From Escherichia coli (GTDB lineage: Bacteria > Pseudomonadota > Gammaproteobacteria > Enterobacterales > Enterobacteriaceae), in assembly GCF_003018115.1 (NCBI RefSeq), contig NZ_CP027457.1: a stretch of DNA of 64,000 bases; one strand, written 5' to 3'. The position numbers were made by a program, and so were the translations under genes. The notes beneath the pieces are model-generated. The model saw only the letters and a program-made list of their open reading frames with translations, ran no database searches and was not told the origin of the DNA. Positions 5,357-5,748 of this stretch are shown piece by piece; the stretch's first letter is position 1; the number at the start of each line of letters is the position of its first letter.

Positions 5357-5558
5357 AAAGCATCCCCTGAATATTCGTGTTAATCATTCCGGCACGTTTT
5401 GTGATTTCCTGTAATGATTCCCTTGTGGCGACAATTGCTTCATCTGGTAAGTGGTAATTACACACCACGCGACCTTTATCCACATTGACCAGTAGCTGCC
5501 CTGTGAATTTCTCACGAAACTGAATGCGGTTAAGGTCAGTAAGTGACAGATTAATAAT
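5346..5558 (-). CDS. Hypothetical small protein (~70 aa) with apparent non-canonical ATT start
   Basis: Protein-like frame IINLSLTDLNRIQFREKF...; AGGAGG SD (5570-5565) 6 nt before ATT (5558-5556); no ATG/GTG/TTG at that spacing. The ORF-track N-terminal extension to 5675 looks non-coding. Confidence 0.4.
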   Translation of the reverse strand: MINLSLTDLNRIQFREKFTGQLLVNVDKGRVVCNYHLPDEAIVATRESLQEITKRAGMINTNIQGMLYAQ

Positions 5559-5748
5559 GGCGCACCTCCTGACGAATACGGGCGGCAAATACAGCAACAC
5601 AACCGGACGGGCAACGGTTACGCGCTTCGCGTTCCGTCCAGGCGGTGACGTGGATGATTTGAGATTCTCCGGCACTCAGGGCCAGAAAACGCCACACAAA
5701 GGCAGTTTGTGTGTGTACAAGGTGTGGTATATGATTTACGGCAACCAT
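5551..5748 (-). CDS. Hypothetical small protein (65 aa), first gene of the minus-strand operon
   Basis: ORF track; GAGGAG SD 5 nt upstream of ATG; lies directly downstream of the operator-bearing divergent promoter region. Confidence 0.6.
   Translation of the reverse strand: MVAVNHIPHLVHTQTAFVWRFLALSAGESQIIHVTAWTEREARNRCPSGCVAVFAARIRQEVRHY

What the first reader, a model, noticed from the sequence alone, without database searches (positions are those of the whole stretch)
5551..5575. Gene with strong SD but no canonical start codon; probable ATT initiation
A protein-like reading frame (IINLSLTD...GMLYAQ*) begins right after the stop of the upstream gene and is preceded by a perfect AGGAGG with a 6-nt spacer, but the only codons at that spacing are ATT ATT. 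The longer ORF-track version starting at 5675 has an implausible N-terminal extension that overlaps the upstream gene by 125 nt.
Basis: partly seen in the sequence, partly recalled or inferred. Interest (0 to 1): 0.5.

Follow-up and report, generated by a model that had tools for sequence, protein, structure and literature searches.

The report
Start codon mutated to ATT
A small, real gene of a phage-satellite island in E. coli has had its normal ATG start codon changed to ATT by one recent base change, so it is probably made only at trace level; this is an ordinary minority allele, not a conserved unusual start.

Summary
On the minus strand, AGGAGG (5570-5565), a 6-nt spacer and ATT ATT (5558-5553) open a 70-codon frame ending at 5346. 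The frame overlaps the TAA stop (5553-5551) of an Icd-like gene.

ATT 5558-5556 is the family's true start position. All 80 related IMG/VR loci carry ATG there, behind AGGAGG or AGGGGG. So do about 300 complete E. coli genomes. The long version from GTG 5675 is not conserved.

The ATT is not a conserved unusual start. It is one derived G-to-T change at 5556. An ATG-carrying island (O178:H19 2012C-4431) shows only three differences across about 1.8 kb, and this is one of them. Only 2 of 5,426 complete genomes carry ATT. A proxy protein places the allele in 358 collection blocks, against 10,709 for ATG. RefSeq already annotates the CDS from this ATT (WP_000609225.1).

The gene is real (dN/dS 0.06-0.5, phrog_340, function unknown) but accessory: the closest island lacks it.

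Most likely this is a hypomorphic or near-null start-codon allele in a mosaic capsid-forming satellite. Any leftover ATT initiation should be around 1-2% of ATG. Interest is low.

The parts
5565..5570 (-). Shine-Dalgarno sequence AGGAGG of the small gene, lying inside the last codons of the Icd-like gene
   Evidence: Read directly. It is one of only 3 perfect AGGAGG in the window. AGGAGG or AGGGGG sits at the same 6-nt spacing in all 80 related loci.
5556..5558 (-). ATT at the conserved start position. The derived G-to-T change (as read on the minus, coding strand) is at 5556. The same base changes the last residue of the Icd-like protein from D to Y.
   Evidence: Homologues have ATG here. Position 5556 is one of only 3 differences from an ATG-carrying island over about 1.8 kb. 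RefSeq starts the CDS here.
5553..5555 (-). Second ATT. It is codon 2 (Ile) of the family (ATG ATT AAT...) and is not the start.
   Evidence: Homologues read ATG-ATT or ATG-CAT at codons 1-2.
5346..5558 (-). Small gene of 70 codons plus stop. It belongs to phrog_340, has unknown function, and translates to the RefSeq protein WP_000609225.1.
   Evidence: phrog_340 E 4.5e-23. dN/dS is 0.06-0.5 against 32 distinct homologues. No hit in Pfam, NCBIfam, PADLOC or by fold search.
5551..5748 (-). Upstream Icd-like gene. Its TAA stop (5553-5551) overlaps codons 2-3 of the small gene, an 8-nt overlap typical of translational coupling.
   Evidence: NF033153 E 5e-18; sequence read.
5117..5356 (-). Next gene of the operon (MHNKTTPD...). 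Its ATG overlaps the end of the small gene by 11 nt and it has its own AGGGGA.
   Evidence: phrog_2512 and phrog_5146 hits.
5851..5879 (-). Promoter-like site that could drive the operon of the Icd-like gene, the small gene and the genes downstream to RepA.
   Evidence: Consensus scan only. It lies among GTGTTGAACAC repeats at 5817-5890.

Best explanation
The frame is a real, small accessory gene (70 aa, phrog_340, function unknown). It sits in the early operon of a mosaic capsid-forming phage satellite (cf-PICI-like island) inserted at tRNA-Pro beside yejM in E. coli.

Its ancestral initiation signal is AGGAGG, 6 nt, then ATG. The start overlaps the stop of the preceding Icd-like gene (ATGATTAA), so the two genes are translationally coupled.

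In this window one G-to-T substitution at 5556 turned ATG into ATT. It also changed the last residue of the Icd-like protein from D to Y. The result is a hypomorphic to near-null start-codon allele. Initiator tRNA can still pair with AUU behind the strong Shine-Dalgarno sequence, helped by ribosomes terminating 2 nt away. IF3 proofreading should nevertheless hold output to roughly a few percent of the ATG allele or less. Any product would begin with fMet and be identical to the normal protein.

Shown here: the conserved start position, the derived and recent nature of the change, its minority frequency, the coding constraint on the family, and the dispensability of the gene. Inferred: the residual level of translation and the coupling.
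For: - ATG at the same position in close and distant homologues, with a conserved Shine-Dalgarno sequence 6 nt upstream (80 of 80 loci).
- No ATH variant in IMG/VR for a pattern fitted to the commonest junction sequence and close variants.
- The ATT 57-mer is exact in 2 of 5,426 complete E. coli genomes. The ATG version matches at 99% or more in 307.
- Against the ATG-carrying island of O178:H19 2012C-4431, window 5646-3860 shows only 3 differences, one of them 5556 T/G.
- The Icd-like variant ending ...RHY, which only the ATT allele can encode, is listed in 358 blocks of public assemblies. The ...RHD variant is in 10,709.
- All 7 RHY loci read carry ATT and an intact ORF.
- Family dN/dS is 0.06-0.5.
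- Representatives of the family start at profile position 1.
- The island most similar in int and alpA (E. coli strain 4, 99.3%) lacks the gene entirely.
- AUU gives about 1-2% of AUG in E. coli reporters, and only infC and pcnB are confirmed AUU starts (10.1101/063800).
Against: - There is no expression data of any kind, so the residual level of translation is an extrapolation from reporter constructs.
- The allele is not a private mutation. It occurs in several mosaic islands, at two or more insertion sites, and in hundreds of assembly blocks, with the ORF still intact. That would also fit a tolerated or even favoured low-expression allele.
- All ATT copies are identical over 403 nt, so nothing can be said about selection since the change.
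- The same base also changes the Icd-like protein, so the target of any selection is ambiguous.
Confidence: 0.8

Rival explanations
1. The ATT is a selected, functional non-canonical start, as in infC and pcnB. It would hold the protein at a low, IF3-sensitive level, and the allele would have spread among islands because low expression is advantageous.
For: - Strong Shine-Dalgarno sequence at ideal spacing, with coupling to the upstream gene.
- The allele is present in several mosaic island backgrounds and hundreds of assembly blocks, always with an intact ORF.
- RefSeq treats it as a normal CDS.
Against: - ATG is found in 80 of 80 related IMG/VR loci and in about 300 complete genomes. ATT is in 2 of 5,426.
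- It is a single event on one haplotype, with no independent recurrence seen.
- The spread can be explained by hitch-hiking of a 2-kb module through island recombination.
Confidence: 0.08
2. In this allele the protein is made from an upstream in-frame canonical codon: TTG 5588, TTG 5597, GTG 5600 or GTG 5675. The product would carry an N-terminal extension.
For: - The frame is open for 117 nt upstream and contains these codons.
- One gene call in a public collection (P0001) started at the TTG.
Against: - None of these codons has a Shine-Dalgarno sequence.
- The extension is not conserved. There are stops within 33-36 nt in 21 loci, and GTG at -117 in 3 of 86.
- P0001 has an internal ATG (M) at the family start position.
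- The extension would be read from the Icd-like gene in another frame.
Confidence: 0.05
3. The small frame is reached by a +1 ribosomal frameshift at the end of the Icd-like gene (CAU UAU UAA). This would give an Icd-small-protein fusion, stimulated by the upstream AGGAGG as in prfB.
For: The small frame is +1 relative to the Icd-like frame. A stop codon and an upstream Shine-Dalgarno-like sequence are both present.
Against: - The Shine-Dalgarno sequence lies 8 nt, not 3 nt, from the would-be P-site codon.
- UAU to AUU or CAU to AUU re-pairing is poor (inspection, using established knowledge of prfB).
- Homologues have a plain ATG start here, and some have a quite different Icd-like C-terminus.
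- The RNA has no special structure (z = 0.77).
Confidence: 0.01
4. The T at 5556 is a sequencing or assembly error.
For: It is a single-base difference from the common allele.
Against: The same base appears in the window, in two complete genomes and in at least seven further independent assemblies.
Confidence: 0.005

Closest known systems
E. coli infC and pcnB, the two experimentally confirmed AUU-initiated genes
   Same: AUU sits at the position where initiation must occur, behind a Shine-Dalgarno sequence. The expected initiation is weak, uses fMet-tRNA and is discriminated against by IF3 (plus established knowledge).
   Different: In infC the AUU is conserved and is part of an autoregulatory loop. 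Here the AUU is a derived minority allele of a gene that otherwise always has AUG. No translation has been demonstrated.
Start-codon (start-loss) polymorphisms of accessory and prophage genes
   Same: A single-base change of a conserved ATG, in a dispensable gene of a mobile element, on an otherwise identical haplotype.
   Different: The replacement is a near-cognate codon with an intact strong Shine-Dalgarno sequence and coupling. The allele is therefore probably leaky rather than dead. No secondary decay is seen.
The P1/P7 immI arrangement, in which translation of icd is coupled to expression of the overlapping downstream gene ant (recalled from the literature, not tested here)
   Same: An Icd-like small gene is followed by an overlapping downstream gene whose ribosome-binding site lies inside the icd coding sequence.
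   Different: The downstream protein is unrelated to Ant. No C4-type antisense RNA was found by Rfam in window 1-11000.
Capsid-forming PICIs such as EcCIEDL933 (bioRxiv 10.1101/2022.09.08.507074)
   Same: The host element has an integrase, an AlpA-like regulator, a RepA-type replication protein and its own prohead protease/major capsid fusion. Homologous islands in O157:H7 carry the same small gene with ATG.
   Different: The island runs off the window, so the full packaging module and the lack of tail genes were not checked. The AlpA hit is weak (E 0.0036).

Membership tests
Genes with a bona fide AUU initiation codon (infC/pcnB type) | AUU at the start position, with a Shine-Dalgarno sequence at functional spacing and no canonical alternative | tested here: met
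   AGGAGG, 6 nt, then ATT at 5558. There is no canonical in-frame codon with a Shine-Dalgarno sequence.
Genes with a bona fide AUU initiation codon (infC/pcnB type) | The AUU is conserved among orthologues | tested here: not met
   ATG in 80 of 80 IMG/VR loci and in about 300 complete E. coli genomes. ATT in 2 of 5,426.
Genes with a bona fide AUU initiation codon (infC/pcnB type) | Initiation at the AUU is shown experimentally (N-terminus, fusions, IF3 dependence) | not testable with these tools
   No expression data are available. The RefSeq annotation from ATT is homology-driven.
Start-codon-loss allele / incipient pseudogene | A derived mutation of an otherwise conserved canonical start | tested here: met
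   Position 5556 T/G is one of only 3 differences over about 1.8 kb from an ATG-carrying island. All outgroups carry ATG.
Start-codon-loss allele / incipient pseudogene | Further disabling mutations or relaxed constraint in the mutant lineage | tested here: inconclusive
   All 9 ATT copies are identical over 403 nt and the ORF is intact. The divergence is too small to judge.
phrog_340 (phage/satellite protein family of unknown function) | A significant match to the family profile over most of its length | tested here: met
   E 4.5e-23; residues 2-69 align to profile positions 8-75 of 85.
Capsid-forming PICI (cf-PICI) | int, alpA and rep genes in PICI order | tested here: inconclusive
   - Integrase: NF007246, E 5e-167.
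- RepA-type helicase: so named in RefSeq for the same gene, with PF13481 in homologous loci.
- AlpA: only a weak Pfam hit, E 0.0036.
Capsid-forming PICI (cf-PICI) | Its own capsid and packaging genes, and no tail genes | tested here: inconclusive
   The ClpP-like prohead protease/major capsid fusion is present at 2-1585(-), E 3e-216. The rest of the island lies outside the window.

The most novel reading that the evidence does not exclude
The ATG-to-ATT change is an adaptive down-tuning switch. By making initiation of this small gene IF3-sensitive and about 50- to 100-fold weaker, or by altering the C-terminus of the Icd-like protein through the same base, it would change satellite induction or host toxicity. 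It would have spread for that reason through recombination into several cf-PICI backbones. That would make it a third natural, functional AUU start in E. coli.
Probability: 0.07. Interest if true: 0.45.

Novelty: already known. Interest (0 to 1): 0.15.

Why it matters
It matters little beyond annotation. The case shows that gene finders restricted to ATG, GTG and TTG either miss this gene or give it a false 39-residue extension. It also shows that RefSeq's homology-based call from ATT marks the right position but hides the fact that the start codon is mutated. For satellite biology it offers a natural low-expression allele of an uncharacterised cf-PICI early gene, which could be compared with the common ATG allele. 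It adds nothing new about initiation mechanisms unless translation from the ATT is shown to be substantial or selected.

Tried and rejected
- Function of the protein. There was no significant hit in Pfam, NCBIfam or PADLOC. The AlphaFold model was poor (pLDDT 64.6) and Foldseek against the PDB gave nothing below E = 2.7. Function stays unknown. The only structural remark is that the common 118-122-aa relatives look like two tandem copies of the unit present once in the 70-aa form.
- C4/CI-type antisense RNA upstream of the Icd-like gene. Rfam found none in window 1-11000.
- A special RNA structure at the initiation site. There is none (z = 0.77).
- A prfB-like +1 frameshift. Rejected on spacing and codon re-pairing, and because homologues have a plain ATG.
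- The long ORF from GTG 5675. Rejected because it is not conserved.
- Sequencing error. Rejected because many independent assemblies share the base.
- Non-ATG variants in IMG/VR. A search with a degenerate pattern fitted to the commonest junction sequence found none.

Full report
**Observation.** The feature lies on the minus strand. Reading 5'->3' there, the sequence is ...CGT ATT CGT C**AGGAGG**TGCGCC **ATT ATT** AAT CTG TCA....
- AGGAGG is at 5570-5565.
- The two ATT codons are at 5558-5556 and 5555-5553.
- The frame stays open to a TAA ending at 5346, which gives 70 codons (IINLSLTD...GMLYAQ).
- The upstream gene (5748-5551) is a host cell division inhibitor Icd-like protein (NF033153, E 5e-18).
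- Its TAA stop (5553-5551) lies inside codons 2-3 of the small frame.
- The mechanically listed ORF starts at GTG 5675 and overlaps the Icd-like gene by 125 nt.
- A perfect AGGAGG occurs only three times in the whole window, against 14 expected.

**Where the gene really starts.** RefSeq/PGAP annotates a 213-nt CDS that begins exactly at this ATT. It does so in a genome whose sequence is identical to the window across the 501 bases around the gene (E. coli 2013C-3181, WP_000609225.1) and in strain P15-385.
- Homologous proteins begin MINLS... or MHNLS....
- DNA of ten homologous loci shows ATG at that position everywhere except in 2013C-3181.
- All 80 related loci from IMG/VR have ATG there. 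They fall into 25 distinct junction sequences, each with AGGAGG or AGGGGG 6 nt upstream.
- In a profile search of 1.84 billion representatives the family is small, with 25 representatives. Those that align from the first profile position begin at their own residue 1. The one exception is a gene call extended upstream that still has an internal Met at the family start.
- The in-frame upstream extension is not conserved. In 21 loci a stop closes it within 33-36 nt, and the GTG at -117 exists in 3 of 86 loci.

The conserved start is therefore window 5558, and the long ORF is an artefact of ORF listing.

**The ATT is a derived, recent, minority allele.**
- A 57-mer centred on the codon is exact in only 2 of 5,426 complete E. 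coli genomes.
- The same 57-mer with ATG matches at 99% or more in 307 genomes.
- No ATA, ATC or ATT variant was found in IMG/VR. The pattern used covers only the commonest junction sequence and its close variants.
- Against the ATG-carrying island of O178:H19 strain 2012C-4431, the stretch 5646-3860 differs at three positions only, one being 5556 T/G.
- Because the two genes overlap, the same base changes the last residue of the Icd-like protein from D to Y. That gives a searchable proxy for the allele.
- The ...RHY variant is listed in 358 blocks of public assemblies. The otherwise identical ...RHD variant is listed in 10,709.
- All seven RHY loci read carry ATT.
- All ATT copies are identical over the 403 nt of both genes. 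This indicates one mutational event and leaves no information on selection since.

**The gene and its host element.** The family evolves under purifying selection, with dN/dS of 0.06-0.5 against 32 distinct homologues. It matches phrog_340, a family of unknown function (E 4.5e-23). Pfam, NCBIfam, PADLOC and a low-confidence structure model gave nothing. Most relatives are about 121 aa and look like two tandem copies of the unit that occurs once in the 70-aa form.

The gene sits in a chain of overlapping small genes. Downstream are a DUF4222 protein and a RepA-type helicase (2957-4366). Upstream lie a promoter-like site and repeated GTGTTGAACAC palindromes.

The island carries:
- an integrase at 7884-9125 (NF007246);
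- a weakly AlpA-like regulator at 7181-7387;
- a ClpP-like prohead protease/major capsid fusion that runs off the left end of the window.

It is inserted at tRNA-Pro next to yejM. This layout is that of capsid-forming PICIs such as EcCIEDL933 (bioRxiv 10.1101/2022.09.08.507074).

The island is mosaic. Its integrase side is 99.3% identical to an island in E. coli strain 4 that lacks the small gene altogether. Its central 2 kb (4300-6300) is nearly identical to roxA-linked islands of 2013C-3181 and P15-385, with one difference each. The gene is therefore accessory, and the ATT module has moved between backbones by recombination.

**Mechanism.** In the ancestral state ribosomes start at ATG behind a strong Shine-Dalgarno sequence. 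The ATGATTAA overlap with the Icd-like stop suggests translational coupling. With ATT, initiator tRNA can still pair at two of three positions. E. coli reporters give about 1-2% of AUG for AUU, and only infC and pcnB are confirmed natural cases (10.1101/063800). I therefore infer a hypomorphic to near-null allele whose product, if made, is identical to the normal protein. There is no special RNA structure. There is also no convincing frameshift site, and the upstream TTG and GTG codons lack a Shine-Dalgarno sequence. The step from "mutated start" to "trace translation" is inference and no expression data exist.

**Verdict.** It is not a gene characterised by ATT initiation. It is an ordinary start-codon polymorphism in a dispensable satellite gene, already annotated from that ATT in RefSeq. 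The most novel reading not excluded is that the change is a selected low-expression allele, in effect a third functional AUU start in E. coli. It has only the allele's spread across several island backbones in its favour, and I give it about 7%.

Noticed in passing
window 5127-5134 (G8 on the minus strand), between ORFs 5117..5356(-) and 4903..5142(-): A homopolymeric G tract varies in length among otherwise near-identical islands: G7 in 8 loci, G8 in 6, G9 in 6, G10 in 2 and G11 in 1. G7 and G10 give one 151-154-aa ORF, while G8, G9 and G11 split it in two, as in the window. This could be slipped-strand phase variation of a satellite early gene, or homopolymer assembly error.
   Followed up: partly
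window 5817-5890: Several copies of the palindrome GTGTTGAACAC (direct and inverted) lie in the intergenic region between the divergent YlcI/YnfO-family gene (5932-6120, +) and the Icd-like operon, around a promoter-like site at 5879..5851(-). They look like operator sites for a small repressor.
   Followed up: partly
window 2500-9400 versus L001, L011, L092, L098: The island is a recombinational mosaic. The int-alpA side resembles E. coli strain 4 (at tRNA-Pro/yejM), the central 2 kb resembles roxA-linked islands, and the RepA region diverges again. The closest island by integrase lacks the small gene entirely.
   Followed up: partly
relatives P0011-P0015, P0029, P0031, P0034 and loci L034-L091: Most family members are 118-122 aa and appear to contain two tandem copies of the unit (FTGxxLV..NG.V....L....) that occurs once in the 70-aa form. 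The 70-aa form looks like an internal deletion that keeps the last 8 residues.
   Followed up: no
window 5736-7226 (-): A 496-aa ORF listed mechanically runs antisense across four small annotated genes and the regulatory region. It is almost certainly not a gene, and RefSeq annotates nothing there.
   Followed up: no
window 5781-5809: A G+C-rich hairpin (GCCCCG...CGGGGT) sits in the leader between the promoter-like site and the Icd-like start codon. It has no Rfam match and its role is unknown.
   Followed up: no
window 2183-2190: A second 8-nt C/G homopolymer in the island, near the PerC-like gene (2235-2507, -). Its variability was not examined.
   Followed up: no
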